A DNA stretch of 64,000 nt from Eledone cirrhosa. Taxonomy: Eukaryota. Where the stretch lies: contig OZ024740.1 in NCBI GenBank assembly GCA_964016885.1, positions 220,906,001-220,970,000 of the forward strand. The letters run 5' to 3'. The notes below the pieces were generated by a model, which was not told the DNA's origin, did no database searches, and saw only the letters and a program-made list of their open reading frames with translations. Within the stretch, counting starts at the first letter, position 1, and every line of letters begins with the position of its first letter. Shown in pieces: positions 13,647 through 50,148 of this stretch. Made by a program: the position numbers and the translations under genes.

Positions 13647-13738
13647 TTAAGAATAAATTGTGACGACTTCCCGACCACTGCCACGCACCATCATTACACG
13701 ATCCAGACCTTCCGTGAGAACTTCTAAGAATTCCATAT
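13647..13738 (-). CDS. kcc: KCC last coding exon ([30 protein letters not shown])
   Basis: cag acceptor; TAA stop at 13647-13649. Confidence 0.96.
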
Positions 13739-16700
13739 CTGTAGAAAAATTTATTAAGGAACAACAACAGAAATTGTTTATTCATAAGAAAGAGTTAAAT
13801 AAAGATAGCTGCATTATAATACAATTTTGTTATATGGTTGTAAGACATAGATACTCACAAAGAAGCTTAAAAATGTTATGGAAGAGCCGCACCACCAACA
13901 ACATTTTATGATAGTTTGTATAAATAAAAAAAATAGCTGTGATTGGCATGTTGCTGTGTGAGATATATCGAAGAAATAGCCTCAAATTCAGAGCTATGGC
14001 AATCATTACACTGTTCCCTTAAAGGTACATAATTTTACCTGCCTCATTCTGCCTTACTCAACAATAGTTTTCAATTACTCTTGGGTCTCAAATAATAGTG
14101 GGGGTTGGAACATTTTTCAAGGTCGTCTCCCTTGTTTTTTTTTTAAACCAGAAGTAGTTGTTTAGTTTACATATTGTAACTGCAACCCATCTTATTTATT
14201 CTATAATATATGGGATTTCTTGTAATGTTCTTTTTTTGTCATGTATAATGTTTTTAATGTCTAAAGAAAATTAATTATCACAGGAATGCTACTACTTAAA
14301 ATAAAATTTCGCCAGATAGATTAGCAAAATTAGGAAATAAGAGCAGGAGGTTGGAAAAAATGTGAAAAAATAATAAAGGGATGACAATGATTATTTGAGA
14401 CCTGAGAGTATTATGATACAATTGTAAAAAAAAAAAAAAGTAATTCCTCTAACAGTATAGAGAATGAATGTAAAATAGGAAACCCAGTGAATTCATCTAC
14501 AAGGGTCAGATACCTGTGGTTCTTTAGCCTATCATGAGTGGCTCTTGTAAAATCTTGCATTAAAATAAAAAATAGGTCTTACGATCCAGACATTGAAGCA
14601 ATTTCACATTAGGAAAAAAATTGCTAAATTCATGTTTTCTTGTAAGCACTTTTTGTTTATGATAAATTATGTGGCTTTGATAGTTTCAATTATTAGCTTT
14701 TTAAAAAACCGATAACTATTTCAGAAAGCCAGTACAATGTGGTAGAAATACATAAAGGGCAAAAAATGACAAATTACCCAGTGCATTTTAACATATTTCA
14801 GGGCTATTATCCTCTTTTCAAATGTGAAACAAAATCTAACGATCAATGTGGTCTTCCATAACTGGTCTACATGTCTGAAATAAGCATATGTGAAATCATC
14901 TCAGTAGCTATCTTATTAAAACATACATAAAAGAGTCCAAGTTAAAAATTAGACCCTTTGTTTTGTTTTGAACCATTTTTTCTTCACATTTGAAAAGAGG
15001 GTATTGGCCCTGAAATATTATGTTGAAATATACTAGGTGAAACATTACTTTGTTTTATATGTCATCCTTTGCCCTTTATATATTTCTACCACATTGTACT
15101 AGCATTCTGAAACTTATCAGTCATTTATTACATATCCCACAATGCTTCAGATTAACTATACTAATTTATCATTATTATGGATTGGCAGTATCGGTAGAGG
15201 GTCGGACGCCATGCTTTGACGCATAGAGTTACGGTCCTTGCCATTCTGAGTTCAAATCCCGCCGAGGTTTACTTTGCCTTTCATCCTTACGGGGTTGATA
15301 AAATAAAGTACCAGTAATTGCTGGCCTTGTGCCAAAAGTAGAAACAATTATTATTTTTTTCTAGCTAAAAATTGTTCTTCAAATTGAAAACTTTCCCTAT
15401 CCCTGATCTTCATCAATATTAGGGAAGACTTGGTTTAAGGATTTTGGAAGGAATATTTTAAAAGATATATTTGTCTTTACTGACCAGTAATTTTTGTGGA
15501 AAGATAGTTGTTCATTTAAACTACTATGTTTTATTTAGACCTGCAAAAACACCTGTATAGGTAATTTTTTTTATACAAAAATATATTTTGTAGATGGATT
15601 GTATTAATTAATTGGAGACATATTCCCATGAAATCATAAAATGGAATCGAAAAAAATTATCTATTGTGTTCTAAACCCTTATTTTAATGGTCCCAGTTTC
15701 ATAGTTTTCCAATTAGAATGTATTTAAAATACAAATTAAATTTTCAAAAGCAAAAAAAGAGAATGAAATAACAGTTTTATGAAAAGGATACAGTTTTGTT
15801 CTCCAGATTCAGTTCTGGGAGGTGTTGGTAGGTTTAATATGACAAGTTGTGCTTCATGGGATTTCTCGACAATTACTTCATTCAATTTTACTGCTGTGTG
15901 CATTCTTCGTACGTTCTTTTTATCACTGGTTCAGGAAAAAGATTTTTTTAAAATCACATTAAATATGAAAACAAAGCTTGAAGAAAAATATTCTTTAATA
16001 TAAAAATGTACTTCACAACTTAAAGAGGACAGTGGTATATGAAATTAAATTATCAAAGATAGCAATTTAAATAATTCAATACTAACGGTTTCACTTGGAA
16101 AAGTTCTTTCCCTAATTCTTTTCCAAGTGATTTTGCTTCTGATGGAGAAAATGTGTATTGGCTTCTGTCAAGTTCTAGTGAATTGGCAGCATCATTAAAT
16201 TCGATAGTCTCTTCAACAACTGTTTCCAATGTCGCATCTTTTGACTCCAGAGCAGTAGGATTATGTGCACGATCAATTATGGACTGAGCCTGAAATACAA
16301 GAAACACAACAAATATCAGAAAGTTAAACAAACACAGTTGCCTACCAAACAATAAAGAACTATGTGTAATTATGAGCAGAGTAAATCTTGAATAATCTAG
16401 CTTTTATGTTACAAGTAGGCCATTGAGAAGTACTCTGTGGGCCCCGGGAACAGATAAAGAATTAGAACACAAAACACCTGACCTGGTGATTTTTTACAAG
16501 ATCTTTCTTGATTTTAAATGTAACTTGTTCCTTTGACATAAGAGTCCAAGAAAAGGAGGAGAAAATTACCTGTACCAGAATCGAAAAGGATTTGTCACTG
16601 TCATGAGATTAAGGTATCCCCTTCATCATAGGAACACTAGGTACTGTTTCAAAGAGTTTCCACAGCAAGTTAAAGAATATTAGCCCAGCCCCCTGTTTTG

Positions 16701-19700
16701 GAACAATTCAAAAGGCATGTCTACTGGGAACAGCAGGGACCCTCTGATACATCTTGAATATCTGAGGCTGCAGGTAGGAGCTTGATGTTCATCAGGGCAA
16801 ATTTACTGGTTAAACAACATCAATGACTAAGATATCAAATTCATAATAATTGACAAAGTGTCAAAAGTATGTATAACTGTTGACATGAACATGACCAACA
16901 AGGAGCAGAAGATTGAAAATTACCAGTATCTTGCTAGGAAGATAAAGAGATTGTGGAATGTTTCCACAAAAGTAATCCCCATTGTTAATAGTGTGTTAGG
17001 GACTATTTATTACCAACTGAATAGAAAGATCCCTGAAAAACATAGGAGTAACAACAACTGTACTATTGATCCAAAAGTCTGTCATATTGAGTACCGCAAA
17101 AATCATTAGAAAGGTCCAGGAGCTTTAAGGAAAAAAATTCCAATTTATTTGTACAAAGCAATGCAATAATAATGATTTGTAATTTTAGGCACAAGGCCAG
17201 CAATTTTGTGGTGGAGTGAGTTGATTAAATCAACCCCATTAATTGACTGGTACTTTATTTTATTGAATCCGGAAGGGTGAAAAGCGAAGTGACTTTGGTG
17301 GGATTTGAACTCAGAATTTAAGGAGCCAAAACAAATGCTGGAAAGCATTTTTTCTGATACTCTATAGATTCTGCTAATCTAAAACAACAACAACAATAAT
17401 ATGTCAGGACGATTCCCTTACAACTCCATAAAGAATTTCAGGCCTTCCTTCATCTCCTCTTCACATATTCTTACTAAATAAAAATAGATTCTAGTTGATT
17501 TAGCTTGTTTATGAAACTCATCAGAATGGCTTTCTTATAACTGGGGATTAATTCTCTTGATATACAAGATTAGATAACTTTTTCTTTTGCTAACTTGCCT
17601 CATTAGAACATGTGATGAGAAGAAGCAGATAAGATGTAGTGACAGAGCTAATTTGGGAGTAAGTTGACTATAATCTAAGAAAACTAACCGTTTCCTTCTG
17701 TAGTCTCATGTTACTAAGCAGTTCTGTTCTTTGTTCCATCATAAGGGTTCGTTCATAGGTATATGCAGATATATCAGAATTACTCTGGAAAGATAAAGAA
17801 TTATGAGTTTTTTCATAAATATCCAAATAAACACATTATTATTGAGAATATTCTTCAACTATGGAACAATATATAGCCACATAAACCATTAAAACAATAT
17901 TTAAAATGTAGATAAATGGTAAGGTAGTTGAAAAACATTAACGTTAAGAATATAGGCACATATGGAATTACTAGCAAAGTAACTGGATGATGGTGGGCAA
18001 TTTTCACCATTGAAAAATGGTTGTGTAGGTGTGTCACAGCAAAAAGCACCCAGTCCACACTATAAAGTGGTCATGTAGGTGTCACAGCAAAAAGCACCCA
18101 GTCCACACTGTAAAGTGGTGGTGTAGGTGTCACAGCAAAAAGCACCCAGTCCACACTGTAAAGTGTCGTGTAGGTGTCACAGCAAAAAGCACCCAGTCCA
18201 CACTGTAAAGTGGTGGTGTAGGTGTCACAGCAAAAAGCACCCAGTCCACACTATAAAGTGGTCATGTAGGTGTCACAGCAAAAAGCACCCAGTCCACACT
18301 GCAAAGTGGTCGTGTAGGTGTCACAGCAAAAAGCACCCAGTCCACACTGTAAAGTGGTGGTGTAGGTGTCACAGCAAAAAGCACCCAGTCCACACTGTAA
18401 AGTGGTCGTGTAGGTGTCACAGCAAAAAGCACCCAGTCCATACTGTAAAGTGGTGGTGTAGGTGTCACAGCAAAAAGCACCTAGTCCACACTGTAAAATG
18501 GTCATGTAGGCGTCATGAGAAACAGCACCCAGTACTCACTGTAAATGAGGTTGGTGCTAGGAAGGGCATCCAGCTGTAGAAACCAGGCCAAATCGGTGGA
18601 GCTGTATGTTGAAATGGTATCAGTGGCTTTTTGTGTACTTTAAAATGAGTGTCTTCATGTAAACATCAGGTGACCTCTGTGAGGACAACACTCTGCCTCA
18701 TAGCAAGAACAATGCCACCAGCTGACGGCATAGGGGGATAGAATAATAAGGCCACATTGAAGGAATACATGAAACAATAAATAAAAGCCAGACTGCTTAA
18801 ATTGTCACAGTATCAGTGATTGATAGTATTACTAGTTTTTATTTCTTTTATTCTTTTTGGAATTAAGAATCTCCATGGGCCCAAAAACCTCCTTGGGATG
18901 CAGATTTTGAAAATCAGATCAGTTTTTTTCTAGGATGCGCCATTTCAGAGCCTTTAAACGACATACATTTTCAAAAATATAGATATACAATATATTTGTG
19001 TATAACAAATATAAATTTAGTTTTGTTGAGAGCATTTTAAGCTGTGATCATATCATAGCCATTTCAGCATCTATTTAAGAATGCTGACGAAAGTGGTTGT
19101 CGTGTGATCACAGTAATACTACATGTGTTTGTTATACATAAACTATTGTATATTGGTTCGCATAATCCTTTATGCTGAATCAAACCTTGTCAGCGTAATC
19201 ACTAGTTAAAATGAAGTCACATTTCCTTACCATCTCGACTATTTTCACTTCAGCTTCAATACGTAGGTTATACATGTATTGATTAAGATCCTTTTCCATT
19301 TGAATACTGTTATCTTCCAGTTCTGAGAAGTGCATTATTAAGAAAAAACAACAGGTACACAATACCCAAATGTTGAAAGAGAGGTGTATCAACTCCAGTA
19401 AATTACTGGTATATATATATATATATATACTTGAATATAAGCTGCAGCACAATTTTCCATGCATTTACAATGTGCCATGTAGTTTAGATTCTGTATGTCC
19501 AGCGAAACATAGGTTATGAATGTAGAGCAGCATAGATGGTAGAAGGTTGAAAAAAACTGAATTGGGAATAGTTTAGTGGATGAGATGAGCAGAATATTAC
19601 TCAGAGACAAACAGAGGATGATGAGAACAAAACCAGTGTTGAATGCTGTGAAGAGAATTAGAATGAGATGGCAGGGCCATGTGTTGAGGAAGGATGAAAT

Positions 19701-22700
19701 GTGGCTGGGTGAGAGGAATGAGGGAGATGAATGTGGAAAGAAACAGAGGGAGGGAAGACCAATTAAAACATAATTAAACATGATGGAGGAGGAAATGAAA
19801 GCCATGGGATTTGGTGAGAGAGATGCAGATGACAGGGCAAAATGGAGAAGCTTGTCATTGGGCATTGAATGGCTAACTTTTACTTTAGCAAGAAAACTAG
19901 CTTTAAAATGTTTGTTGCTGTGGTTCTAGGTACAGTATTTTTATGGAAAAAATGTGACTTATACACAAATATATATGGTGTGTTACTAACTCTGAAATCT
20001 CCAATTTCTCCATGAATTTCTTAAATATCCCCATTTCAATCAATATCTATTACAATGTGATAACCTCCCAATCCTACCTTGATTTTCTTTTGCCCATTCC
20101 ACTTATTTCAAATCTGCGAGACCATGTCCCATCAAATGAAATATTTTTTTCATTTCTTATGGATGAGCCCAGGTTATCAACAGTACCACTACTTTTCTGC
20201 CTAGCACCCATGAACCTGTCAAATGCATTTCATCAAAAGGACATCGTCCTACTTTTTTACACTTTCTAGAGTGATTAAAAGCTGCTTTGGTCAGACAAAG
20301 TTATAGGTTTGGCTCAGTCACCTGTAAATGTGGAGAATCAAACCAGACTATAGGGCATTGCATTGTCTGATCCCTGTTACTCAATCCATGCAGCTCAAAA
20401 GACCTTGCAGACTTCAATGAAAATATAATGAGCTGTGTGGTGAGGTGGAAAGCTGTTACATGACCACTGTGCTAGCCTTGATGAAATGACAAGAGAAAGA
20501 AAACACCTTCAAATTCAACAAAAACCCTTTGTGATCTCCTGGTGAGAAGTTCCTTTGTCTTCAGACATGCCCAACTTTGAACTGGCTGTAATACATCTTC
20601 AACACCACACTTCTACATGGCTTACAGTTCACTGTCCATGTTTTTGACCATTTTCATTGCACTTACGCTAATCTTGTATACCGTATTGCAATGCTTTATA
20701 TATAAGTGAGACCCATTGTTGATTGGATAACTGCTTCTGGGAACACGTACTTAATGTCCATAGCAACATACCAAAACTATGGATAGCCACTTCAACTTCC
20801 CTAGTCACCCAGCCAGAACCTCTCAGTCTTTGGAAGACACCAACTAATTTTCCAATTGGGAACCTTTGTTCCCAATGGTACAATCATTTGCCTTAATTTC
20901 CTCTAATTCTGTCACCCACCTCATTTACTTTTTAACCCTTTAGCATTTAAACTAGCCATATCTGTCCAGAATTCTCTCACCTCTTTCTGCTCAAACCAGC
21001 AGCTCATACTGATATTAAGGTATTGTCCGCAAAATAAATATCAACAGATATGAAGATGGGGAAGGCAACCGGTCCATCGGGTATAGCTGCCGAGATACTG
21101 AAGGCATCTGGGTCTGTAGGTCACACTATAACCACACGTATTGTTAACCAGGTAATACTAGAAGGTGTCATACCAAAAGATTGGTGCAGTAGCATCATTG
21201 TCAACTGCTACAAAGGTAAAGGCGATGCACTAGATAGAGGAAACTATAGAGGTATAAAGTTGATGGACCAGGTCATGAAAGTAACAGAAAGAGTTATAGC
21301 ACAGTTGATTAGGGACCGGGTGAAAATAGACGAGATGCAATTTGGGTTTGTACCAGATGCACCACTGATGCCCTCTTCCTTGTGAGGCAATTACAGGAAA
21401 AGTACCTAGCTAAAAGTAAGCCACTCTACTTGGCATTTGTCGACCTTGAGAAAGCCTTTGACAGAGTTCCACGTGCTGTAATCTGGTGGGCTCTTAGAAA
21501 ACTAGGAGTAGATGAATGGCTTGTGAAAGCGGTACAAGCATGTATAGGGGAGCAGTCAGCAAAGTTAGTATTAGCAATGAGTATAGCGAGGAATTTAGCA
21601 TACAGGTTGGGGTCCACCAGGGCTCTGTCCTTAGCCCCCTCCTGTTCATCATAGTCCTGCAGGCAATAACGGAGGAGTTTAAGACCGGATGCCCATGGGA
21701 ACTCCTGTATGCTGATGACCTCGCACTCATAGCTGAATCTATGGTAGAACTTGGAAGCAGGGACTAGAAAGAAAGGGTCTCAAAGTCAACATGACAAAGA
21801 CTAAGGTCCTTGTAAGTAGACGAGAAAACAGAACCCAGATCCCCTCAGGGAAATGGCCTTGCTCAGTATGTAGGAAAGGTGTAGGTAGGAACTCCATTCT
21901 CTGCCCCAAATGCAAAAAATGGGTACACAAGAGATGGAGCGGGATCTCAGGAAGCTTAATTAAGAATGTAGGCTTCACATGCAGCAGCTGTGCTGAAACA
22001 GCAAGCAGCAAACAGCCACAGGAAACAAGTACCACCAATCTCTGGGAGGGCTCTGTAGAAACAGTAGACAACTTCTGCTACCTAGGTGACCGAATTAGCA
22101 GCGGAGGTGGGTGTTCAGAAAGTACAATAACTAGGGTAAGAACGGGATGGAAGAAGTTTAGGGAACTACTACCACTGCTAGCTGCAAAAGGCTTCTCCCT
22201 CAGAATGAAAGGCAGACTGTATGATGCGTGTATCCGAACAGCAATGTTGCATGGTAGTGAGACCTGGGCGCTGAAAGTGGAAGATTTACGTAGATTAGAG
22301 AGAAACGAAGCCTGCATGCTCCGATGGATGTGTAACAGTAATATACGTGAACGACAAAGCATAAATGAATTGAGAGAGAGACTGAGCATAAGAGGAATCA
22401 AATGCTGTGTGCAGGAGAGGCGGTTGCGCTGGTATGGACATGTGATGCGTATGAAGGATGACAGCTGCATAAAAAGGTGCAGAGCACTAGAAGTTGATGG
22501 AAACCGCGGAGTGGGGAGACCCAAGATGACCTGGGATGAGGTGATAAAAGCCGACCTTACCCAATTACACCTCTCAAAGGCAATGACACACGACCATGAC
22601 TTCTGGCGTCATGCAGTAATACAGAGTACCCGACCTCCCATGGGTACAAGCTGAAGCATATAGACAATATGGAAAGTGAATACATTAAAACTGGACAACT

Positions 22701-25700
22701 CTTTTTTTAAATTTCTGATTTATATTAGTTTCCTGAAAATTAAAAAAAAAAAAGAATTTGGTGTAAGTATTGAAGAAGTGCCAAGAAATTCCAGTGGAAG
22801 GAAGCTGCAGTAGAAGAAGGCGAAGGAGCAGAGGTGGTGAGAGCTGATCTCAAATCACTGAAACTCAGTGGAGATGACGAAGGATCCTGACATGTGGAGA
22901 GATGCTGTACTGAAAAGGACTTGTTCAACTCATACAAGCGTGAAAAAAACGGATGTAAAAACGATGAAGATGATGGTGATGGTTATGATTCAGCATTTCA
23001 AAACATAAATTCATATCTGTACAAATATAGTCCAGGATTGAAGTGAAGTTGTGGAAACTGTTTGTCGCAAACATATAACCCATAACTCCTGAAGGTGTGA
23101 TAGAGGTGCCATATTGACATACAGTATTTCTAGGGCATTTTTAAACCTGGCAGAGCCCATCTCCTCTCTGGGACTCAATACAGTAGATTTCTTCTAGGGA
23201 AGGTTAGAGAGTGAGAGAAAGGAAGTGAAAAAGAGATATAGTGGAAGAATCGACCTCAGTACTAGACTGGTACTTTTTTTTTACCTTAAATGGAGGAAAG
23301 GCGAAGTTGAACTCGGTGGGATTTGAACTTCCGAGAGCAGAGAGCCAGAACGAATATCATAAAGCATTCTATCCAATGTTGTAATGACTGCCAATTCGCT
23401 GCCTCTGTGCAAACATACACATTTATAATTGTAAACATGCCTTATGTATTTCTCTGTAAATTGAAAAACATGAACAGTTCGGCCTAGGTTTCAGCTCTTC
23501 TTGGAATCATCTTCAAAAGTTATATACATCTCTCACATTTCACAGAGAAACACACAACTTTGTAACTCCATCAAATGTAACTGTAACAGTGAACTGGATA
23601 TGCCATGTTACATGTGTGTGTTTACATTCACATTTTCTGCAGCTTCATTTAAATCCTATATTGCTTCTGTACAGATAAGAATTTATAGTATACAACGATT
23701 GGCTAAAAAGTTCATAGGCTGACTATGTAGCAGTGACGCTAGAGCTGTGAAATCTTGCATGCATTAATTTCAACTCTTCTTATTAATATCTGCATTGTTT
23801 CTTTCCAGGGATTGTGTTGAAAAATGAACCTCATTTGGTCATTCTATGAGAGTATCTTGGTAAATCTATGAACTTTTCAGCCCTTAAGCTGCTTAGTGCG
23901 CAGTTTAATGCATATACAATGGAACCTCAGTTCACAAACACCTCTAATCATAAACAAATTGGTTCACAAACAGTTTTTCTGAACATAAAACCTCTTGGTT
24001 GACGAATGGTGTCTTGAGTAACGAACACGCAAACTGGCAACAATGGTTGGTGACAAGCTTGGAGCATAGGTGGGAGAGTGTCATTTGCTGTAGTTAGATA
24101 CAATGGTGATATCTATCTGTCTTTCACACACAGTCTCTCACTTCGTATGGGAAAAACAGTTTCGGTTTACAAACATTTCGGTTACGTTCAGTCTTCAAAA
24201 ACGAATTAAGAACATGAACTGAGGTTCCACTGTATTTCAAAATATGAATTTTAAAAAAATAATCTCACACTGCCCTGGAAGTATTGAAAACCATTGCAAG
24301 CATTGAAAATAAGACATAAAATGGTGGTAATGATTTCATTGAAAGGATACGGGCTACTGTGAAGATCCGTAGTTTGCAGTTTCTCCAGACTTTGTGTTGT
24401 CTAAGCAGGAAGGGCAACAACATCAAAAGACCTCCTTCATATAATCAAAGTTAAGAGAAATATTTTGAAGAAAAGTCAAATATAGAAACAAAGAGATAAT
24501 ATAATGTGTAAATACAGTTGGATTTTCAAAATGTTCATATAATGCTCTGGACATATATTGATAATTTGATTAATTTAAAGATAAAATTGACCACATTTTA
24601 TTGAAAATTATGACCATAATTATTTTAACTTATATATTTAACCCTTTAGTATTTAAACTGGTCATATCCGGCCAGAATTCTTTGACCTCTTTCTGTTCAA
24701 ACCGGCCATAACTGGTCACTCATGCTGATGTTAAGGTATTGTTCCCAAAATAAATAATATCAAAATCTCATAGATTCAATATTATGTGAGATAAAGTCTT
24801 TATCATGAAAATATAATAGTAAATATAGAGTAATGTAAATGCTAAAGGGTTAACTTATTTTTAACAAAGGATTATTTTCTATTTTCATAGAAGTTTGATA
24901 ACTAGATTTAAACACTCACAAAATAAATATTAATATAACCTAAGGAGACTTGGGATGAGGTGATAAAAGTTGAGCTGGCACAATTGCACCTCTCAAGGGC
25001 AATGACACAGGATCGAGAACTCTGGCATTATGCAGTAATGTGAAGGCGCATGGCTTAGTGGTTAAAGCATTGGGCTTGCAATTGAGAGGTTGTGAGTTTG
25101 ATTCTTGGACCGGGTGATGCATTGCGTCCTTGAGCAAGACACTTTATTTCATGTTGCTCCAGTTTACACAGCTGTAGAAATGAGTTGCGACGTCACTGGT
25201 GCCATGTTATATTGGCCATTGTCTTTGTCCTGGACAACATCGGTGGCGTAGAGAGGGGAGACTGGTATGCATGGTCGACTACTGGTCTTTCACAAAACAA
25301 ACCTTGCCCAGGCTTGTGCCTTAGAGGGAAACTTTCTAGGTGCAAAACCATGGTTATTCGTGACTGAGTGAGGCAATAGAGATATGCAGTAATACAGAAA
25401 ATCCACCTTCCCATGTGCACAGGTTGAAGCATACATCTTGTATACACTACGTTTCCCCTTCCCCATCCCACTATTGTTTAAATGCCCAAAACACAATGGC
25501 ATCCATTTGACTCCATTACAAGCTGAGGGGCAATGGAAAATTTACTTCCCTGTCTATTTTAAAAGAAGAAAGTGTTAAATTGGATATTAATATTTCTGAA
25601 TATACATATTTAAACTGTTTCAAAGTATTTTTGTAAAATCTGATCTATTATTTAGACATATATTTGTAGTTAAATACTGTGTGTATTGTGGCTTTTAGGG

Positions 25701-28700
25701 ATAAATGTACTGTATCGATGCAATGGCATAAGACTCGGCTGTAAAACATTATCTCAAAACATCCTATCCAACCCATGCCAGCATGAAAAAGGGGACATAT
25801 AAATGATGATGACAATGGGGATGATGACAATGGTGATGATGATAATGATGATGAATTGATTTTGATTTCAAGGATATGAACAATCCACCAGACGTCAATG
25901 GTTCCGGTTAATTTTTGAGTGTTATCAGGGAACTGGTTAATGCCCTTTACAGCCATTAAGGCCAGCTGGGCACTAGCAACATTCCTGATGGTGTCTAAAA
26001 AGGAAAGGAAAATTTATACTTAGTTAAATTAAATCCAAGGACAAATTAAAAAAAAAGTGGTAGTTGTTAATCGAATAATTTTTTGTAGTCATCTTATATA
26101 TATATATATATATATATAAAAGCTGACCTTTACAAAACACCAGTCACATATACACATGCAAATGTATGTACAGCTGTATATGTATGAATGTGTGTGTATC
26201 CACAGAAAATATTTCAAAGAATTCAGACACACAAACGTGCATATTCACATACACACACACACATAAGCACACTTACGTGTACACAGATGAACACAAAAAA
26301 AACAAAAGAATTCAGACACACACTTGTATATACACACACACAAACCATACAAAAAAGTTGCAAATACGTGAATATACACATACATACACTCATACATAAA
26401 AATATACACACACACACACTCATACAAAAACATACACATGTACACCAAAACACTACAAACAATCTCCACATAAACACACACACAAAACACAGGACTCACA
26501 GACACATACATGTATACATGCACACACAAACAATACAAAAGACTCAGACATCCACATATATACACACACACTCATAAAAAAAACATACATCCATGTGCAC
26601 AGAAAAAAAAAATTCAGACACATGCACTTCCATCAACAATACACAATCCACACATAGAAGTGTAGAAGATCACGCCACCTAGCTTTGACTTTGGAGGCAG
26701 TCGATTAACTGACCTTAGTTCTGACGTCAGTAGCTGAATACACTCGCTTTCCAACTTTGTGTGTTGATGCGAGCAGACGCATTTCACTGTGGCGAAACAG
26801 CGATATCACACCATGCGGTCACGGGATAATTGAACACTGCCACTTAATGATAATTACGAATTACCAATCAAGGAGCAACTGATGTGATAACCCGTTTTGT
26901 TTATTGCTCTGATTAAAATGCTCATGTACATATAATCTCGAGGTATGTTCTTTTTGCTTAATTGTTTACCTACACCTAACAACAAATAGAAGAGATGTTC
27001 TAGCAGCCAAGCTAGGGAAACGAACTCCCCTCTAAATCATAAAACAATGCAGCCTTCTAAAATGGTGACCATCTCTCCTAAAGTGGTTGACTCCAAACAT
27101 CGAACACTATAAAATGGCAACCCTCCTGATAAAACATTTCGTTGAACATTTATAAGCGAAACACTTATATCTTCTATTATGCTATTCTCTGGGCAGTGAA
27201 TATACAACAAAAAACAAAAAAAAAAACATTTAATTTTTCTGCCTTGAATTATTGTGACTTGTCGATTCTGGATTTTGCATTTCTTTCTTCATGGATGTTG
27301 AAGGAAATTTGTGTAGTTTTCCCGTTGTTCGGAACATCTAATGAAATTTCTGCATTCTTTTTACGTGAATATCACTTACTTTTATACGTCCAAGTTGATA
27401 TAGATTGACAATGAGTGGTCCTAATTTACCTGCGTTCTCAGGTGATCCCAAACTCTGGTTTGCACAACTCAACGCATATTTCGCTGCGAATGGAGTAAAA
27501 ACAGAGCAGAAGCTCAACGTTTTGATAAGCGGCATTCCTTCTTCACTCGCTACAACGGTGAAGGATTTGATAACGGACCCGTCGGCCGGTATTTCGTATG
27601 ATTCATTACGGGAAGAAATAGTAAGAAGAAACAGTCGTTCTGCTGAAAGCAGATTTCGTTCATTGTTGGATGACGTGTGTTTAGGTGACAGAACACCGTC
27701 TGAATTTTTGTGACACATCAGGGACCTCAGCGACTCGACCGACGAAGATAGCCCATTCATAAAGAAACTATTTTCTCTTGCCTGCCAAACAACGTCCAAA
27801 TTATCTTGGCAAACATTGTGGGTACCAGCTCTTTGGAGCAGATTGCTGCCTCCACTGATCGAATTGTGGAATTTTCTAGAAAGGCTACCGCCCCGGACTC
27901 GTGTGTTGCTTCTTCTGCACATTCGAACCAGCCCGTCTTAACACGCGAGGATGCCATGTTAAAAGCTACTGACGCTTTGATGCAGCAAGTCGCTCGGTTA
28001 TGCAGGGAGAATAGGCCGTATTCCCGGCAGCCTAGGAGTCGTTCGCGTTCTTTCACGACTCCACGTCAGCATACTACTTCGCCCGCCAGTAATCCATTAT
28101 TTTGCTGGTATCATGCCAGCTTCGCGGATAAGGCAAAACATTGCCGGCCTCCATGTAAATATTCAGCTTCGGGAAATGTAAATCAGAGTCACTAAAGGCG
28201 GCAAGTGAACTCTGCGAGACACAACAGAACCGCCATTTCTTCATAGAGGACCTCCTGTCTGGAAGAGCCTTCCTCATAGATGCAGGAGCTTCGTGCAGTA
28301 TTTGACCTGTTAATTGTATGACAGTAACTCCTCCCGAGTCGTCGATTGAATTGCAAGCTGTCAACCAGTCACCAATCCAAACTTTTGGACAGATCTCGCT
28401 TCCTCTTCAGTTTCGAAATCTTCGTCGGGATTTCAAATGGGTTTTCAATGTTGCTGACCTGCCATACCCGATTTTGGGTGCGGACTTCCTGCACCATTTT
28501 TCTTTGACGGTAGACGTCCGTCACCAACACCTAGTCGACGATATTACTGGTTTTTCTCTTTGTGGCAGGACGGCAGAAGTTTCTACAGTTAGTCCGACAT
28601 TCTTCATCGCTAACTCCGGAAACCCATATCATGGATTGTTGAAATCGTTCCCGCAACTGACTCATGGAAATTTTAGAGTCACTGATCCGAACCACGCCAT

Positions 28701-31700
28701 GGAGCATTTCATTACTACTACTGGCGCTCCAAACTGAAAGCAGCACGGTCCGAGTTCGATCATATGCTGCAGCTCGGAGTTATTCGTCCTTCCACGAACC
28801 CGTGGGCATCTCCATTACATATGGTGCCAAAATCTTCTGGGGATTATAGACGATTGAACTCGATGACCGTACCGGATCGGTATTCTATCCCTCATCTGCA
28901 GGATTTTGCATCATCGTTGCAAGGTTGTAACATCTTTTTGAAACTCAATTTGATACGAGCCTACAACCAAATTCTTGTCAACAGAGACGACATCCCGAAA
29001 ACGGCTATATCTACGCCATTTGGATCTTTTGAATTTCTCACCATGCCTTTCGGGTTAAGGAATGCTGCTAGCACCTTCCAGCGATTTATGGATGAGGTCA
29101 CTCGCGACCTCGATTTTGTATACACATATATTGACGATCTTCTTGTTGCTAGCTCTTCTTCAGCGCAACATTTGCGCCATCTGGACCTTCTATTTTGTCG
29201 TTTGAAGGATTACAATGTTCGGATTAATCCATCAAAATGTGTTTTTGGTTCCGAATCTCTGAATTTTTGGGGCCATGTCATTGACACTGATGGTATTCGA
29301 CCTATTCCTGAGAGAGTTAAAGCTATAGAGGATTTGCCTCCACCAACCTCACTCCGTCAGTTGCGCCAATTCTTGGGGCTGATTAATTTTTATAGGCGGT
29401 TTGTGCCTAATTGTGCTAAGCTACACTTCTCTTTGACGGAAATTTTGAAAAATTGTCGAAAGAAAAATAAAGACATTTCTTTGAATGAAACTCAGCTCGA
29501 GGATTTTGAGAATGCGAAAATTGCTCTAACCAATGCATCTTTGCTGGCTCACCCAGTGTCCAATGCTAAACTTTCATTTTGTGTTGATGCGTTGGATACT
29601 GCCGTGGGCGCAGTTTTACAACAAAGTAGGAATGATCAACAGCAACTGTTTGAATTTTTCTCCAGGAAGCTGAAACCTGCTGAAACCCGCTACAGCACCT
29701 TTGGACGGGAGTTGTTAGCTATATACTTATCGGTGAAGCATTTTTCGCACATGCTTGATGGAAGAACGTTCACCATTTCACGGACCACAAGCCGTTGACA
29801 TTCGCCTTGCAAGCAAAGGCCGACAAATACTCGCCCAGAGAAACTAGACATGTCAACCTCATCTCTCAATTTACTAATGATATTCAACATATTCCGGGTT
29901 CTATGAATACAGCGGCCGACGGCGTCTGGTTTGCCGATTGCTTCGATCTCGTCATCCAATGACATAGATTTGAATCGCTTGGCAGCCGATCAGCCTACCC
30001 TTGAATCATTGGATGTTACATCATCTGAATTTGTGAATTTCAGGATGAAATACCTACCATTATCGACCGCAGATGGACGGATCCTCTGCGGCGTCTCTTT
30101 GGATGCGCCACGCCCTTTTGTTCCGTTGAACCCTCGTCGAACTGTGTTTCTTGTTTTACATGGCATTTCACATCCAGGATCTTCTGTCACAGTAAAACTC
30201 ATAACGGCTAGATTCTTCTGGCCAAATATGAGACGTGATATTACTGTTTGGTGCTGTTCCTGTGTTGCTTGCCAGAAATCAAAAGTTCACAGGCATGTTA
30301 AGACTCCTCTAGTTACTTTTAGTAACCCGGACGCTCGGTTTCGCCACATTCATGTGGACATCGTGGGACCTTGGCCAATCAGCGGTGGTTATAATTAGAT
30401 AATGACTGTTATCGATCGTTTTTCGCGATGGCCTGAAGCCATCCCCTTGAAAGATATCACTGCTGAGACAACAGCGCGTGCCCTTGTGTCTGGATGGATC
30501 GCTCGATATGGAGTACCAACGTCAATTACCACGGACCGTGGAAGGCAGTTTGAATAGAATCTCTTCCATGAATTAACGAAAATCATCGGCGCTAAACGCA
30601 TCCGAACGACTGCATATCATCCTGCCTCTAATGGAATGGTGGAGCACTTCCACCGACAACTAAAAGCCGCCCTACGGACTTCTCCTGACTCTACGTGTTG
30701 GAGCGAGTACCTCCCTATTGTGTTGCTGGGGATTTGGTCAACAATAAAGGAGGACCTTGGGTTCTCCCCAGCTGAATTATTATATGGTGCTCCTCTAGCG
30801 TTACCTGGGCAAATGCTTGCCCCTGTCGATCTTGCTGCACAGGATCCGCTTTCCTACGTATCCCGTCTGCGTTCCTATTTTCAGGACCTGCCGCCGATGG
30901 ATACGAGGAAGCAAACTGTAAAATCTGCAGTCCCGAGGGATATTGCCTCGTGGACCCACGTGTTCGTGAGAAACGATGCTGTGAGACCACCTCTCACACA
31001 ACCGTACTCTGGACCCTACCGTGTATTAGCTCATTCTGAGAAACATTTCACTGTAGACATTAAGGGTTCCAGAGAGACGGTTTCTATTGATCGACTCAAA
31101 TGAGCACATTTGGACACAGACGCTATCACACCTGAGCCACAAACGCCCCCATCTTTTTCTTTCGCACACACACCTGCTTCTTCGTTGTCCCCCCTCACCA
31201 AGATATAAGACTACGACCCGTTCCGGTCGGAGGGTTCATTGGCCCAAAAAACTGTGTAGCACTGTATATTTTAAAGCTGCTATTGTGCGGCGCTTTAATC
31301 CTATATTTCCTATTTGAACTTTTAAAAATTGTATTTACATTTTATTATAATTTTTTTTCTTTCTCGTTCTTGCATGCTTGTTTCATATGTTCTTTTGAAA
31401 TTTGTTGTGCCCTTCATGCTTGGTTGGGCTGATTTGCTCCTTGGTTTGGGGTTTTTGCTAGTTGCTCATCGTTTTTCTACATACATGGTCCGATGAACCG
31501 ATTTTTATTTCCTTTTCTAAAAATCTGGTGGGGGGGGGGGCATGTAGAAGATCACGCCACCTAGCTTTGACTTTGGAGGCAGTCGATTAACTGCCCTTAG
31601 TTCTGACGTCAGTAGCTGAATACACCCTCTTTCCAACTTTGTGTGTTGATGCGAGCAGACGCATTTCACTGTGGCGAAACAGTGATATCACACCATGCGG

Positions 31701-34700
31701 TCACAGGATAATTGAACACTGCCACTTAATGATAATTATGAATTACCAATCAAGGAGCAACCGATATGATAACCTGTTTTGTTTATTGCTCTGATTAAAA
31801 TGCTCATGTACATATAATCTCGAGGTATGTTCTTTTTGCTTAATTGTTTACCTACACCTAACAACAAATAGAAGAGATGTTCTAGCAGCCAAGCTAGGGA
31901 AATGAACTCCCCGCTAAATCGTAAAACAACGCAGCCTTCTAAAATGGTGACCATCTCTGCTAAAGAAGCAATAACGCACATCAATGAAATGCACTCAATC
32001 TGCACACCCATAACTATTTAATTTATTTATCTTTAATTTGTTTTCTTTTAAGGCTCAAGATAATTTCTTTGAACGCAAAACTTTTTTGTCAACCCCTAAT
32101 ATACTACAAATTCTTATAAGGACCCCAGATGATAACCACTGTTCTAAACCAGGTGTGGGCAACCTTTTTCGAACAGTGGGCCACATAGGATGTGGTTCAT
32201 CATAAGGTGGACCACACTACCAAAAAAATCCAAGGCACTTTTGAAATTAGGTGTGCTATTCGGAAATCTAAATGGGGTGCATGCGGCCCACAGCTTGCTC
32301 ATGACTTTTCTAAACACTAACTTAATAATAAGAACATTAGTTATTTTACAAAATCCCTTGAAATTTTTGATGATTTTCAGAATTAACTGAAGATTATGAG
32401 CAGCATCTTTCATTAGAAATATCGTAATGAAAGGGTTAAGACAACTTGAAAGAATATATTTATCAAAATATCTAAAACCGATTGACCAATATCATATCCT
32501 ATGAATCCTTATTTGCAGACACATATCTTAAATATAGTTCATTACTAGTACCTTATGGAACACATTTGGGAAATCTGGGAGAAAATGGATCCCCTCACAG
32601 ACATGCCTGTGTGTGTGTGTGTGTCTTCTGCCAGTATATATCAGAAGAAGATGTAAACATCAGAGAAAAAAAAAGTGCTTTTAAAACAAAGTCCCTTGCA
32701 ATATTTGTTCTGCACTGAATTACAGATACATTCTCTCATAGTTAGAAATGCATTGAACCAGTGATTAGCCATTTGAAAACCTGTTAACGATGATGCTGTT
32801 GTTCACCAAATGTGATATAGAATAAATAAATAAATGAAGATTAACAACAATAAAAGAGAGTTGCTCCAGGTAGAACTATTACTTTTCTGAATTGAGAGAT
32901 CACAGCTGTGATATTATGGGCATGTGGTTAGAATATCTTAGGTAAGAATTGTTGGACAGATTTTATGGGCAAAACCAATTGGCAGGACACCCAGGGGTAG
33001 ACACTGAGCAAGATGGGTGGATAAAATCCAAGAGCTTGGCTGCTTGTGGCAGGACCTGCTAGAGGGTGTGCTTGAGAACTTATCCTCCATGACCCTCTCA
33101 AGAAGAAGAAAGAAGAAAACAACAACAACAACAATAAACATAAAACAAGCAAGCAAATAACTGGGTTACCTATAAAGACCCTGTAGCTCTTCTGCTCAGG
33201 ACTATGTCTCCAACCATAAGGCCATCCGATCATAATTGTGTTATGTTTCAAACCTCCAAGGCCGGCTGTCTGGGTTCTGTAAGATTAAAAACTCTTATGT
33301 TATTTCAATAGCAGCAGGAATCATCTGATTTCTTTCCTTTCTTTTTTTAAAAAAATTCATAATATACATAAGAAGGGCATCAAGCCATAGGAAACCTGCC
33401 AACCAAAGGGTTGAGAGGACTCTTGATCTGTGTCAAAGATATGACGTTCTCCATAAGAATGTTGACCTAGACAATACATGCAGCCAGTATACTCTATAAA
33501 GAGGTTAGTGTTAAGGAGGGCATCCAGCCATAGGAAATCTGTCAAACAAAGGGTTGGAAGGATTCTTCAGTTACATGAAATACATGACCACCTTCATAAT
33601 ATTGGTAATAAGAAGGGCATCCAGCTGTAGGAAACTTGCTAAACAAAAGGTTGGGAGGATTTTTCAGCTATGTCAAAGACATGATGACCTCCTTAGTGTT
33701 AGTGTCACAATAAAATGCACTCGGTAGAGAATAGGAACATATGCAAATGAGATACGGGCCCCTCACCTATCTGAGAACAATGTAGAGTGTAACAACATAT
33801 GTAAGAGAGATGCATGCGCATGATCCATCTGAGAGATCAGTAACTTAACTTGAGTACTGACTCGGTCGGTGATGACGTGTCCAACTCTTGCTAGCAGGAA
33901 GAATAGATCTTAAATAATGATGATGATGGCAATAACTTTGGCGAAGTGACTGACTGATCATCTCATCTTTTTAGGGGTGTATCATCATCATCATCATCAC
34001 CATTTAACATCCATTTTTCCACGCTAGCATGGGTTAGATGTGTTTTCCTGTTGTGAGACAAGTCAGATCTTGCTCATACAGAACCGTTTCTGGCTTGGTT
34101 TCTATGGCTGGATGTCTTCCTAACGCCAGCCACATTTACAGTGTGGAGTGGGTGCTTTTTATCATGGCAGCAAAACGATCACTTTACAGTGTGGGCTGGT
34201 TGTTTTTTGTCATGACACCTAACACAACTACTTTACAGTGTTTTTGGATGTCAGTAGACCTGCTTCAGTAGTGACTCGGTCTGTGAAAACCCTTCCAACT
34301 CTTGCCAGCAAGGAAACTGGATGTTAAATGATGATGATGAGAGGATGAGATTTGAAGGAGAGTTAGCTGCTATTTCTGGATGAATGAATACTTATTTGTC
34401 TAATCAGTCAATTATTAGTTAGCTATTATTTCTAGATATCTTCACCTAGTTTTTTTTTTTAAGTTCCTGATAATTTTAGGTCAATGAATAGAGGAAGACA
34501 ATAGAGTGGTTTATTTCCGTGAAGTGGTTAGTACCTATATTTTGGTGGTGGTGTTGTAGGAGACTAAAGTGCCAAGTTCCTGTTGAAGTCTATTTTGGTG
34601 ATCTCCTATTGTATCAAGAAACGATGGAAATTAAAATATAGGTAATATATTGCCTTATGAATGAATTTGGTAGATGGAAACTGTAGAAAGCCTGTTGTAT

Positions 34701-35564
34701 ACAGATGTGCATAAATATACATGTATGTATATAAGTGTAAAAAAAAAAATATATATATATATATATATCTTAGTTTCAGAAAAGCAGAAATTGTTTGCTT
34801 AAACTTTTAATCTGTACTATTAATATATATATATATATTCATTATTATTAAGGCTAAAAAGTGAGTCTTGTTACTCAGGATTTTTGCCTGTTTATCTCAG
34901 CCGTTAACCACATACAGATATATATATATATATATGTATGCATAAATTCTCTTCCCTTTGGTATTTGTTGTTGTTATCTATTGAAATTAGCATACATATG
35001 GTCAAAATTTTGTTCATGGAGTTTTCCTCTAATATCGTAATTGAGTCTACTATGATGCCAAGAATTTATTTCTCGCATCAAGTGTCTAGAGACTACCTCA
35101 GATGTTTTTGACTTGTGCTGATTAAGTGCAAATATGGCTCCAATGAACTACTACTCTATCATCATCATCATTATCATCATTTAACATCTATCTTCCATGC
35201 TGGAATGGGTTAGTCTATATATATATAAATATATAGTAGTTAGAACATCAGGCTGACAGTCCTGAGGTTGTGAGTTTGATTCTTGGACCGGGTTTTACGT
35301 TTTGTTCTTGAGCAAGACACTTTATTTCACATTGATCCAGTTCACTCAGCTGTAGAAATGAGTTGAGATGTCACTGGTGCCAAGCTGTATTGGCCATTGC
35401 CTTTCCCTTGGACAACATCGGTGGTGTGGAGAGGAGAGACTGGTATTCATGGGTGGTTGCTGGTCTTCTACAAACAACCTTGCCCGGACTTGTGCCTCGG
35501 AGAGGAACTTTCTAGGTGCAAATCCCATGGCCATTCATGACCGAAGGGGGTCTTTACGCTTTAC

Positions 35565-35617
<53 letters not shown>

Positions 35618-36252
35618 GTAAAAGGTTAACAGAAATAAAACAAATGGTATAGTATATGGAAGGAATACATTAGTTTAAAGCTTAATGGGACACTCGTCTA
35701 AAACACGCTAGTGTGGAAATATGGACATTAAACGATGATAATAATGATATAGTATAAATAGAGAATTAGGAAAAACCAGGTGAGAAAAGATGAAATTTGA
35801 AAAAAGATTTATAACATTATATTGTAATATAATTGCCTAGTTTTTCCTAATATTCTATTTATTCTAAATTATTCTGTGAAATTCTATTTGGAACCATGTA
35901 CCATATTTGATGATTCAACATCTGGATACTTATAACTCCACCAACTACGTTGAGCACAACTGACTGATAGGCTGTTTATTTCACCTTTCTTGCATATTCA
36001 CTCCACATAAACACGAATTAACCAACATAAGAAGAAACCTCTATATCTATCTATATGTATATACCATGCTAGTGTGGAAGATGGACATTAAACGATGATG
36101 ATGATGATGATAGAAGAAGTCAACACAGTAATACAATACAATGATGATATATTAGGAAAATGAAGGAAAGAAGAGAGGATGCTTGGCAGAGAGAAGAAGA
36201 AATAGCAAGACAGACAGGAATAAGAAAAAAAATAGAAAATAGTAAAAAGGCA

Positions 36253-36287
<35 letters not shown>

Positions 36288-39200
36288 AATAGGGTCTATC
36301 AGTCTGAATATGGCAAATGACACAAATCTTCAGTCAATTGAGACTATCCTTGCAATTTCAAGAATGAAACTCCTTTTAGGGGTGTTAAAGTAAAGAGAAG
36401 CAAGGAAGAGAACTCTTGTAGCTTGAGCTGAACCATGGGAACAGACCATGTGTTTGTGTGAATGTGTGTGCATATGTATGTATGGATACCAGATGTCATG
36501 GATGCCATATCAATACTACTATAAGCCTGAGGTATTAGAAAATGTTAACAGCATATATCATACTTAAAATAAGGTATGGTTTGGCATGAGGGAGGATATT
36601 CTACCATAGAAATACTTACCAGAACAGAGATCTCATTCAACCCATGCAAGCATGGACAAACAGACATAAAAGCAATGATGAAGATGATGATGATGATGAG
36701 CCAATTTAAAGCCTATAAGAGTACTTACAGGTGACATAACCCCTCAATCACACTTTTTGCCACTAATACATCTGCAAAACCTTTGATATTTTCTGAATCC
36801 ATTAAATGATCAAGTGCCTATAAAGAAATAAAAAATAGAAAATTTAACCAAACAAAAAAATAACAAAGCATGAGACATCAGATATCTTATCCCTTACATC
36901 CCAAAAGAAGAAAATAAAAATAGCTCATATCTTAAAAGGGTTAACAGCCGGAAAAAAAAATCCTTTTGTTAACATATTTCTTATGAAAGACACTGCTTAT
37001 GATTTTCAAATATTTTTAATAAAGAATTTGGAGAAATTTAGAAGAGTTTTTATTATCAAGTTGATATTTGAAGCATTACTTAACAAAATGTTACATAAAA
37101 TCAGAATGAAAGGTATGACTATTTTAAAAGGAGCAGTTTTCTATAATAAAACCAGCAGTGGTTTCAGGCAGATTGGTATCAAAAGGGTTAAGTAGATTGC
37201 ATACAAAGGGTTAACAAAAGAAAAGATTATAAAATCCATTCGTTAACATATTTCTAATGAAAAAAACTGCCTATGATTTTCAATTATTTTTGTAAATAAT
37301 CAAGAATTTGGAAGAGCTTAGTAATATAAGTAACTTTACCATTACTAATCAGGTGTTTTGAACATAACTAACTTTCTCATTATCTATTTGTATTTGGAGC
37401 ATAACTTAATAAAGGCTCTTACATAAAAGTATGATGGAAGATTTGTATATAAATATAAACAGTAAAATAAACGATAGGTAGTATCTAGTAGTTTGGTATT
37501 AAAGGATTAAAAATATCTATAATACCATTCTGGTTGCTTTGACATGGGTACAAATGTTACACTTTTAACAAGTTTAACTATGGAACATAAAGATATATAA
37601 TTTAAAAGTTTTTACATAATGAAAGAAGTATTATGTTTTCAGCAATATTATATAAGAACATTTATTAAGTTATGTTCCAAACAATATCTTAATTATTAGA
37701 ATATTAATTATATATTATAACTACATCCCTCAACATTTTTAATTTTTTCACAATTATTTGAAAACCAAAGGCAGTGTCTTTCATTGGAAATATATGGTAG
37801 TAAAACATTTAACAGAAAAGTTTTAAAATACACTTACTTGTTTAGCAGCTTGAGATTTAGCAAACGTTCTCCTAAAATCTCCTTCTAGTACACTGGATAC
37901 TAGAATAAGTCCTTTACCTAAAAGTTAATTAAAAATATAGAATATACAATAAATTTAACAATTTCTTCACAAAATATTATTATATGTTTATGGTCTTAAA
38001 TTTTTAGAATAAGATTTTCTTATGGTAACATTAAATTGGAAGTTGTATTATTCTTAAGCAGTGGATTTTAAGGAAATGTTAATATAGTTGACCATTTAAA
38101 AAAAATATTTAGTCAAGAGAAGAGCAATGTACGTGGCCCTTTTCAGAGCCTCTGAAACTAGTTGGAAGGAGGGGAGATGGTAACCACAAAACAGAGTCCT
38201 GGTCTGAATTACTTGCAGCAGAACATGAACTCTGGTGAAGGCACCCAAGGGCCAAGTGGTGACAAGACTACCACTCAAATAGGTTGCAGTAGGATTTGAA
38301 CTCAGAACAAAAACAGCAAGAAAAGGCAATGCTTTAACAATGCTGTAAATTCACTACCCTAGACTGGTACTTTATTTTATTGACCCTGAAAGGATGAAAT
38401 GCAAAATTCCCCTCAGCATGATTTAAACTGAGAGCATAGAAGATGGAAACAAATGCTGCAAGGTATTTTGTACCATGCTCTAATGACTGCCAGTTAAGGA
38501 AACGCTGGTCTAAACAATTCTATTTTTCTATATGAACCAATGTAGAATCTTCTATATTTATTTAGTGTTTCTTCCATCATTACTTCAACATGTATAGAAG
38601 TTCATGTTTCACTGATGAGGGCATAATAATACCTGGTACTTGAGTTTAATGAAGCCACCATACAATCCTGCAGTCTAATGACTGCAACAGGCAAAATAAT
38701 AAACGAGAGTTAAAGAATATATAAATATATATATGCATACCAGCTTTTAATTGAGTTGCGAGTGTTGCCAATTTTGGGTACATTGGTTTCAAATTTTCAT
38801 CTGGTTTCATAAGAACAAGCAATTGGGGTCTAAAGAAAGAAAGAAAGAAAGAAGGAATATCAGAAAATTATATGCACATATGAAATAAAATGATATTGTT
38901 TAACTTGTCATAATGTCAATATTTGTTAAAGTATAGAAATAATCAAGTCATCTCCAGTTAATTACTGGTAGATATTTGATCAACTTGGACAGATTTAGAT
39001 TTGTTACTATATTTATTTCCCTTAAAGCACACACTGCTATCTTAAGAAAGTTGATAAGACTACATTTCTTCTTTTCCTCTTACCTCCTGAGGGAGTCGTA
39101 GGGGCTTCCAGAGACGGATAAAGAGAATGAGAGAATGGAAGTTAGAAAGAAATATAGAGGAAGAATCGATCCCAGTACTTTTTTTATTGACCTCAAATGG

Positions 39201-42200: not shown

Positions 42201-43129
42201 TCCAGCTGAGTGAACTGAAACAAGGTGAAATGAAATGCCTTACTCAAGGACAAAATTCATCACTCAGTCTGGGAATTGAATCCATCCCCGTATGATCAAG
42301 AACCCAACAGCTTAACAACTGGTTAACGTTTCTACAGTCAAAAAAAGAACTCATCCTCCTATCCTCAGTTGTCCAGTGGGATGCCTCAAATTCAGGAAAA
42401 GCAAGACTGATGAAAAGCAAAAATGACTGATGAAAAGCATACATGTTTGATGAAAAGCAAAAACATTATGTAATATTCATTTCAAGGAAAAGAATAGCAT
42501 ACCTCCAATTTTTGGTATGGGGTGGTCCTTCTTGTAATCTAAGTAATGCATATCTTGCCGCAGACATAGCAAGTCCACGTATACCATCTCCCCATTCTTT
42601 TTCAGCACTGTTAAATTACACATTCAATAAAGATTTAAACATTAATTTTCTAAGTATCAATTAACTATTCAGAGTATGTTTTTATTGTTGCAATTTTTAT
42701 AAATGAATATATACATACACATATATCAGTAAATGCGGTTGGTATTAAGAAGCACATCCTACTGTAAAAATCCTGCCCAAATTTACAGTTATGTTTGAGC
42801 AAGATACAGCGCAGCCAATCTGGCCAGACTTGTCTCATGATGTGAACGACCCATCTAACCCATGCAAGCATGGAAAATGGATGTTAAATGGTCATGATGA
42901 TGATGATACACACACACACACACACAGATAAATATAATGAATAAAATAACCAGGGTTTAATCACATTATTTAATAGATTTACAAACATTTCTTTTAAATA
43001 CAGAATTATTCTCTGCCTATATGCTTGCCTTATATGTTTGTATTATCAAGTCTACCCTTTATCTATCTATATATATTTGTCTTGTTTTTGTTTGTTGTCT
43101 TCTCTTTGTTAATTTTCCTATATTCTTTT

Positions 43130-43160
<31 letters not shown>

Positions 43161-47613: not shown

Positions 47614-47656
<43 letters not shown>

Positions 47657-48350: not shown

Positions 48351-48385
<35 letters not shown>

Positions 48386-49582: not shown

Positions 49583-49638
<56 letters not shown>

Positions 49639-50098: not shown

Positions 50099-50148
<50 letters not shown>

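What the first reader, a model, noticed from the sequence alone, without database searches (positions are those of the whole stretch)
24441..25877. Minor-spliceosome intron with non-canonical AT...AT ends and a competing in-frame AG
Seen: KCC homology stops at WWIV-C|ATATCCTTG, a textbook U12 AT-AC-subtype donor. It resumes 1.4 kb away after a U12-like branch site TTTCTCTTAAC followed by tttgattat|ATGAAGGAGGT. No AC dinucleotide lies between the branch motif and the exon. Restoring the conserved WWIVH(D/E)GG motif requires an AT-AT intron. An AG 6 nt downstream gives an in-frame AT-AG alternative reading WWIVRGLLM (2 aa shorter, motif destroyed). I found no in-frame GT-AG solution. Known: U12 3' splice sites are positioned by branch-point distance and tolerate rare AT-AA/AT-AT/AT-AG ends. 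Inference: this is a natural AT-AT intron, possibly with alternative 3' site choice, which standard annotators would mis-model.
Basis: partly seen in the sequence, partly recalled or inferred. Interest (0 to 1): 0.85.

Follow-up and report, generated by a model that had tools for sequence, protein, structure and literature searches.

The report
Octopus minor intron ending in AT
An octopus potassium-chloride transporter gene has a 1.4-kb intron carrying the signals of the rare "minor" splicing machinery that ends in AT where related molluscs likely have AC; it is probably spliced normally, and such introns are a rare but already catalogued type that some gene-prediction pipelines get wrong.

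Summary
On the minus strand, 25877-24441 (1,437 nt) starts with a U12 donor, has a U12 branch motif 9 nt from its end, and ends in AT. Cutting AT-AT gives a stop-free 603-residue KCC/SLC12A4-like frame, 591 of 603 identical to the Octopus bimaculoides protein with no gap. The genome has U11, U12, U4atac, U6atac and CENATAC matches. The final T is probably real: an Argonauta gene model reads through the same end and needs a T there, while cuttlefish, oyster-like and spider models need a C. An octopod AT-AC to AT-AT switch is therefore inferred. No RNA or same-species read covered the base. AT-AT is a known subtype (0.95% of conserved animal minor introns; 8 human rows seen, and ERCC5 has the same geometry). 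The AG alternative lies 15 nt past the branch motif and 0 of 167 homologous proteins show its product. A likelier competitor is the exon's own first AT, which frameshifts. The scan noted similar non-canonical U12 introns in other genomes, none in this gene. Verdict: real, a new member of a known kind, low interest.

The parts
24441..25877 (-). U12-type intron, A-type, AT-AT ends, 1,437 nt, phase 1 inside the His codon of WWIVHEGG (10th intron within the window)
25869..25877 (-). U12 5' splice site ATATCCTTG
   Evidence: predicted duplex with this genome's U6atac -5.5 kcal/mol against -2.2 or weaker for the 12 non-U12 introns
24450..24460 (-). U12-like branch motif TTTCTCTTAAC; candidate branch adenosines 24452 and 24451
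   Evidence: motif match only, the duplex-energy test did not discriminate
24441..24442 (-). Terminal AT, 9 nt after the branch motif; the acceptor that restores the conserved protein
24439..24440 (-). First AT of the next exon, 11 nt after the motif; possible competing acceptor, frameshifting
24435..24436 (-).
25878..25994 (-). Upstream exon (DTIRN...VWWIV) of the KCC C-terminal domain
24351..24440 (-). Downstream 90-nt exon (EGGLLML...IFTVA), flanked by U12 introns on both sides
19323..24350 (-). Second U12-type intron, GT-AG, 5,028 nt, 14-nt spacer
13739..15791 (-). Third U12-type intron, GT-AG, at the position of the last U12 intron of human SLC12A4-7
13647..62454 (-). 3' part (16 exons, 603 codons plus stop) of an octopod SLC12A4-like K-Cl cotransporter gene; the 5' part lies beyond the window

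Best explanation
This is an intron with minor-spliceosome (U12-type) signals and AT-AT ends in an intact octopod KCC gene, likely spliced at the AT 9 nt after the branch motif to give the normal WWIVHEGG protein, and likely derived from an AT-AC intron by one C-to-T change in the octopod lineage. Mechanism: U11 and then U6atac would pair with the ATATCCTT donor, U12 with the CTTAAC branch motif, and the 3' end would be set mainly by distance from the branch, with a 5' A tolerating any last base (established for AT-AN introns; inferred here). Shown: the signals, the intact reading frame and the presence of the minor-spliceosome genes. Inferred: that the T is fixed in the species, that the transcript uses this junction, the lineage history, and somewhat slower or noisier splicing as for other A-type introns.
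For: AT-AT is the top-scoring junction and gives 603 residues without stop or gap, 591/603 identical to P0043. H-[DE]-G-G is kept in 163 of 167 long homologues, including 7 Octopus RefSeq-type models and 6 full-length proteins from 3.8-4.0 kb Logan contigs, likely cuttlefish-type transcripts. U12, U11, U6atac, U4atac and CCDC84/CENATAC all match over cut-off in G000. The Argonauta model P0002 reads WWIVPCVYEGG: all 32 nine-base spacers compatible with it end in T, and nine bases is this window's spacer. Read-through models put C at the last base in Sepia pharaonis (P0241), Oedothorax (P0258), two oyster-like records (P0239, P0250) and P0268. The same position holds a U12 GT-AG intron in 19 distinct unnamed animal loci. 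All 8 human U12 AT_AT rows have spacers of 9-11 nt, 4 of them 9; ERCC5 has 9 nt and an exon starting with AT. A contig of another organism (X5, record 25) spans the junction with no difference listed at 24441 (weak, 142 rows hidden).
Against: No transcript of this species was seen, and no same-organism contig was shown to cover 24441. The Argonauta and other terminal bases are inferred from protein models, not read from DNA; the Argonauta model fixes only the last base (AT, CT, GT or TT). The intron ends of O. sinensis and O. bimaculoides were not seen, so their correct models do not by themselves show AT-AT splicing. The branch motif has one mismatch to consensus and did not stand out in duplex energy. 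The two GT-AG U12 introns of the gene use 14-nt spacers, so the AG at 15 nt is within reach of the machinery.
Confidence: 0.85

Rival explanations
1. The intron is an ordinary AT-AC U12 intron and the T at 24441 is an assembly error or a private allele.
For: One base separates the two. Five read-through models in other animals need C. Same-organism contigs did not cover the base.
Against: The Argonauta model independently needs T. AT-AT is 3.85% of AT-starting animal minor introns, so prior odds favour a real T by about 44:1 even at an assumed 1e-3 error rate (from Table S1). The 1,812 coding bases have no stop or frameshift, and two X1 contigs inside the intron match with 0 differences. A segregating allele is not addressed by the error odds.
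Confidence: 0.07
2. The intron is alternatively spliced in a regulated way between the AT and the in-frame AG, giving a second KCC isoform two residues shorter (WWIVRGLL), possibly steered by A-to-I editing of the first intron base.
For: The AG is in frame and 14-nt spacers work in this gene's GT-AG U12 introns. Editing of U12 AT-AG donors is reported in human NUP210 and CRYZL1 (PMC4176328). Heavy editing in cephalopods is recalled, not from a call.
Against: 0 of 167 homologues show the product. A-type spacers were 7-12 nt in 17 of 17 rows seen. AT-AG is described as disfavoured and U12 alternative 3' ends as rare and error-like (PMC3584512). No unusually strong duplex covers the donor: -28.2 kcal/mol against 14 control windows of -19.6 to -40.7. 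The AG is a by-product of the Glu-Gly codons.
Confidence: 0.05
3. The junction is made another way, by the major spliceosome or through a micro-exon, and the AT-AT reading is coincidental.
For: U2-type introns with AT starts exist (PMC1557818).
Against: No AG in the last 100 bases, no motif-preserving GT-AG pair, no micro-exon candidate, a consensus U12 donor, and a U12 intron at this position in other animals.
Confidence: 0.03

Closest known systems
Human ERCC5 U12 AT-AT intron (PMC8280824 supplement row; AT-AC in mouse per PMC1557818 Table 3)
   Same: ATATCCTT donor, TCTTAAC branch motif, 9-nt spacer, AT end followed by an exon starting with AT, and an AT-AC counterpart in a relative.
   Different: Other gene and phylum; the human intron is backed by RNA data, this one is not.
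AT-AN (A-type) minor introns, AT-AT subtype (PMC1557818: 6 human, 6 mouse; PMC10639083 Table S1: 701 introns, 0.952% in animals)
   Same: Donor, branch motif, short spacer, single-base departure from AT-AC, lineage-level switching of the last base.
   Different: This member, in an octopod KCC gene, was not found in print by my searches.
U12 introns of human SLC12A4-7 (two each; SLC12A7 has one GT-GG)
   Same: Same gene family; the window's last intron sits at the position of one of them; the family already has non-canonical U12 ends.
   Different: Neither listed human intron is at the WWIV-H position, and both are G-type.

Membership tests
U12-type (minor) intron | 5' splice site RTATCCTT | tested here: met
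   ATATCCTTG at 25877; U6atac duplex -5.5 against -2.2 or weaker in 12 non-U12 introns
U12-type (minor) intron | Branch motif near TTCCTTRAY | tested here: met
   TCTCTTAAC, one mismatch; the energy test against U12 snRNA did not discriminate
U12-type (minor) intron | Short branch-to-3' end distance | tested here: met
   9-nt spacer, 10-11 nt from the branch A; human AT_AT rows 9-11 nt; optimum 11-13 nt in PMC3584512
U12-type (minor) intron | Host has a minor spliceosome | tested here: met
   U12, U11, U6atac, U4atac and CCDC84 over cut-off in G000
U12-type (minor) intron | Orthologous position holds U12 introns elsewhere | tested here: met
   19 distinct AG ends, 15 with a GTATC donor in the same locus; AT donor read-through in bivalve-type and O. 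vulgaris models
U12-type (minor) intron | Excision depends on U11/U12/U6atac | not testable with these tools
   needs knockdown or in vitro splicing
AT-AT subtype | Genomic last bases are AT | tested here: inconclusive
   AT in the assembly; T inferred in Argonauta; no same-organism read shown at the base
AT-AT subtype | Transcripts join at the AT | tested here: inconclusive
   no RNA holder listed; relatives' proteins all use this junction
SLC12A KCC cotransporter | Homology to SLC12A4-7 with an intact C-terminal domain | tested here: met

The most novel reading that the evidence does not exclude
Octopods fixed an AT-AC to AT-AT change that weakens the 3' end of a KCC intron next to a cephalopod Asp-to-Glu change that created an in-frame AG, so the minor spliceosome can switch, tissue-specifically or through editing of the first intron base, between full KCC, a two-residue-shorter form and a frameshifted decay product, tuning neuronal chloride export.
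Probability: 0.05. Interest if true: 0.6.

Novelty: new member of a known kind. Interest (0 to 1): 0.22.

Why it matters
As it stands it is a clean invertebrate example of a known rare intron subtype and a fix for gene models: the O. vulgaris model stops at this intron, the Argonauta model gains three false residues, and a Sepia model starts inside it. The position also appears to show three end types across animals (GT-AG read from DNA; AT-AC and AT-AT in relatives inferred from protein models), which makes it a usable case for how U12 ends drift. It would matter more only if alternative 3' end use proved substantial or regulated.

Tried and rejected
Sequencing runs: no RNA holder listed. Laying 4 of 13 runs gave contigs only; repeats inside the intron swamped the tables, X1 and X4 had no cover on the exons, and 142 difference rows were hidden. 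Branch-site duplex energy with U12 snRNA did not separate U12 from U2 introns, and six internal intron sites scored better than the real one. The editing-duplex scan found nothing above controls. Micro-exon and GT-AG solutions were rejected. Splicing at the AC of the branch motif was rejected because it gives a stop here. A second or allelic copy of either exon was not found in G000 (one distant paralogue-like hit at E 0.04). None of the intron-bearing loci among the 80 metagenome loci kept (of 149) showed an AT donor; one flagged locus, L027, was contiguous coding sequence and was dropped from the count. Paper searches for cephalopod plus minor spliceosome gave 0 papers and octopus plus U12 plus non-canonical splice gave 2, one a general survey and one on sodium channels that I did not read. 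The primary mutational study of U12 terminal dinucleotides was not held and is known here only through citing passages. intronIC could not be run.

Full report
Observation. On the minus strand an exon ends at 25878, the intron begins ATATCCTTG at 25877, the motif TTTCTCTTAAC lies at 24460-24450, nine bases follow and end in AT at 24441, and the next exon starts at 24440. The upstream exon matches solved KCC1-4 chains. The window is at G000:C1:220906001-220970000 of a 3.0-Gb assembly, and each of the two exons has one close match in it.

Gene. tblastn with cephalopod proteins maps 16 exons between 62454 and 13647. A junction search put the AT-AT junction at the top score for this intron. The 16-exon model gives 603 residues with no internal stop, 591 of 603 identical to Octopus bimaculoides P0043 in one ungapped block, 576 to Argonauta P0002 and 553 to P0004, so the host is an octopod close to Octopus. 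Twelve of 15 introns have ordinary GT-AG ends and three have U12 donors (25877, 24350, 15791). These three donors pair with the genome's U6atac at -5.5 to -6.2 kcal/mol, the other twelve at -2.2 or weaker; with U11 one non-U12 donor scored as well as the three, and the same test for branch sites with U12 did not discriminate. U12, U11, U6atac, U4atac and three exons of CCDC84/CENATAC match over cut-off in G000.

Which 3' end. After the branch motif the candidates are AT at spacer 6 (in frame, one extra residue), AT at 9 (conserved protein), AT at 11 (the exon's first two bases, frameshift), AA at 14 (frameshift), AG at 15 (WWIVRGLL) and AG at 18 (where distances are given from the last branch A). 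The AC of the motif itself is in frame but gives a stop. There is no AG in the last 100 intron bases, and the only two in-frame GT/GC-AG pairs near the junction destroy the motif. No micro-exon candidate was found. Among the 167 proteins of 600 residues or more held (best hits and cluster members, not all 3,038 hits), 147 read HDGG, 16 HEGG, three are mis-models and one lacked the motif; none shows the AG product. In the 17 human A-type rows displayed (the first rows of a longer sheet) spacers were 7-12 nt, counted by hand; in all 8 human U12 AT_AT rows they were 9-11 nt, four of them 9, and three have an exon starting with AT. ERCC5 uses the AT at 9 with another AT at 11, as here. Against dismissing the AG: this gene's two GT-AG U12 introns have 14-nt spacers, and GT-AG introns at the orthologous position had mostly 10-15.

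Is the T real. Direct evidence is thin. No RNA holder was listed. Of four runs laid, all contigs, the two same-organism runs did not show cover of 24441; a contig of another organism (X5, record 25) spans 24275-24516 with differences listed at 24369 and 24468 but not 24441, with 142 rows hidden. Indirect evidence is better. The Argonauta model reads WWIVPCVYEGG, which is what results if the AC of the branch motif is taken as acceptor and nine intron bases are read; all 32 compatible spacers end in T and share 4-6 of 9 bases with this window's spacer. Of 172 short proteins examined, 129 were contiguous, 19 lacked the motif and 24 were flagged as read-through. Of these 24, 13 end in Asp (last base G), five informative ones end in His (last base C), none in Tyr, and six were contiguous variants or too short to tell. 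The five include Sepia pharaonis P0241, the spider Oedothorax P0258 and two records whose exon is identical to named oyster proteins. From DNA, 19 distinct intron ends at this position in unnamed metagenome loci are all AG, 15 with a GTATC donor in view. The simplest history is an old U12 intron, AT-AC in molluscs and a spider, changed to AT-AT in the octopod line; this is inference from protein models. Prior odds from Table S1 of PMC10639083 (701 AT-AT, 16,044 AT-AC) favour a real T over an assembly error by about 44:1 at an assumed error rate of 1e-3.

Mechanism. U12 introns are defined by donor and branch sequence, the 3' end is set largely by distance with an optimum of 11-13 nt, AT-AG is disfavoured, and alternative 3' ends are rare and error-prone (PMC3584512, passages). 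A 5' A can splice to any last base with a preference for AC (PMC4176328, passages; PMC1635337, one passage). A-type introns, AT-AT included, depend on CENATAC and show higher basal retention (PMC8280824, passages and supplement rows). I infer normal splicing at the AT at 9, with some retention and noise. An editing-driven switch to the AG found no support: the best duplex over the donor was within the range of 14 control windows.

Comparison and novelty. PMC1557818 (passages and Tables 2-3) lists 6 human and 6 mouse AT-AT U12 introns, several AT-AC/AT-AT switches between the two species, and notes that such introns are often mis-mapped. PMC10639083 (passages, section 30 and supplement Table S1) ranks AT-AT second among non-canonical animal ends at 0.952%. 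Human SLC12A4-7 each have two listed U12 introns, one at the position of this window's last intron and none at WWIV-H. PMC2831892 (passages) reports GG-AG in macaque and cow SLC12A4; PMC8848931 (passages), PMC7367187 (passages) and PMC11347168 (passages) added nothing on this intron. Searches showed no paper on this octopod intron, but O. sinensis was among the species of PMC10639083 and its per-intron tables were not visible, so it may already be listed there. Mis-annotation is real but patchy: O. vulgaris P0047 stops after reading into the intron, Argonauta gains three residues, Pinctada and Sepia models are also wrong, while O. sinensis and O. bimaculoides RefSeq models are right.

Verdict. 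A real feature, most likely a natural AT-AT minor intron spliced to the standard KCC protein (0.85). It is a new member of a known kind. Interest 0.22; a regulated alternative 3' end remains possible at about 0.05.

Noticed in passing
window 24638-24853: High-copy element inside the intron with 18-nt terminal inverted repeats beginning TTAACCC (very high contig depth); piggyBac-like MITE by recalled end pattern. It carries a branch-like motif CCTTAAC at 24736 followed by AT and AG, a possible cryptic U12 acceptor.
   Followed up: partly
window about 24940-25410: High-copy interspersed repeat(s), SINE-like by recall, in the same intron (depth).
   Followed up: no
window 24351-24440: A 90-nt exon flanked by U12 introns on both sides (A-type upstream, G-type downstream); the gene has at least three U12 introns.
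   Followed up: partly
window 21737-22654 (+): 305-residue open frame that looks like the C-terminal part of an RTE-type LINE, inside the GT-AG U12 intron (label from recall).
   Followed up: no
window about 27338-28195: Open frames resembling a retrotransposon gag region inside the 7.2-kb intron upstream (label from recall).
   Followed up: no
G000 contigs C9, C4, C12 and others (L007, L008): 15 U6atac matches over cut-off against one U12, one U4atac and two U11; probably dispersed copies.
   Followed up: no
L011, L043, L046-L060, L063 and similar: In one group of unnamed animals the WWIV-H intron is U12 GT-AG while the next intron (after IFTVA) has a GTAAGT/GTGAGT donor, suggesting U12-to-U2 conversion of the intron that is U12 in the octopod.
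   Followed up: no
window 62330: First intron in the window has a weak donor GTTTGATATT and is 14 kb long; it contains a U12-donor-like ATATCCTTTG at 61290 with no assigned role.
   Followed up: no
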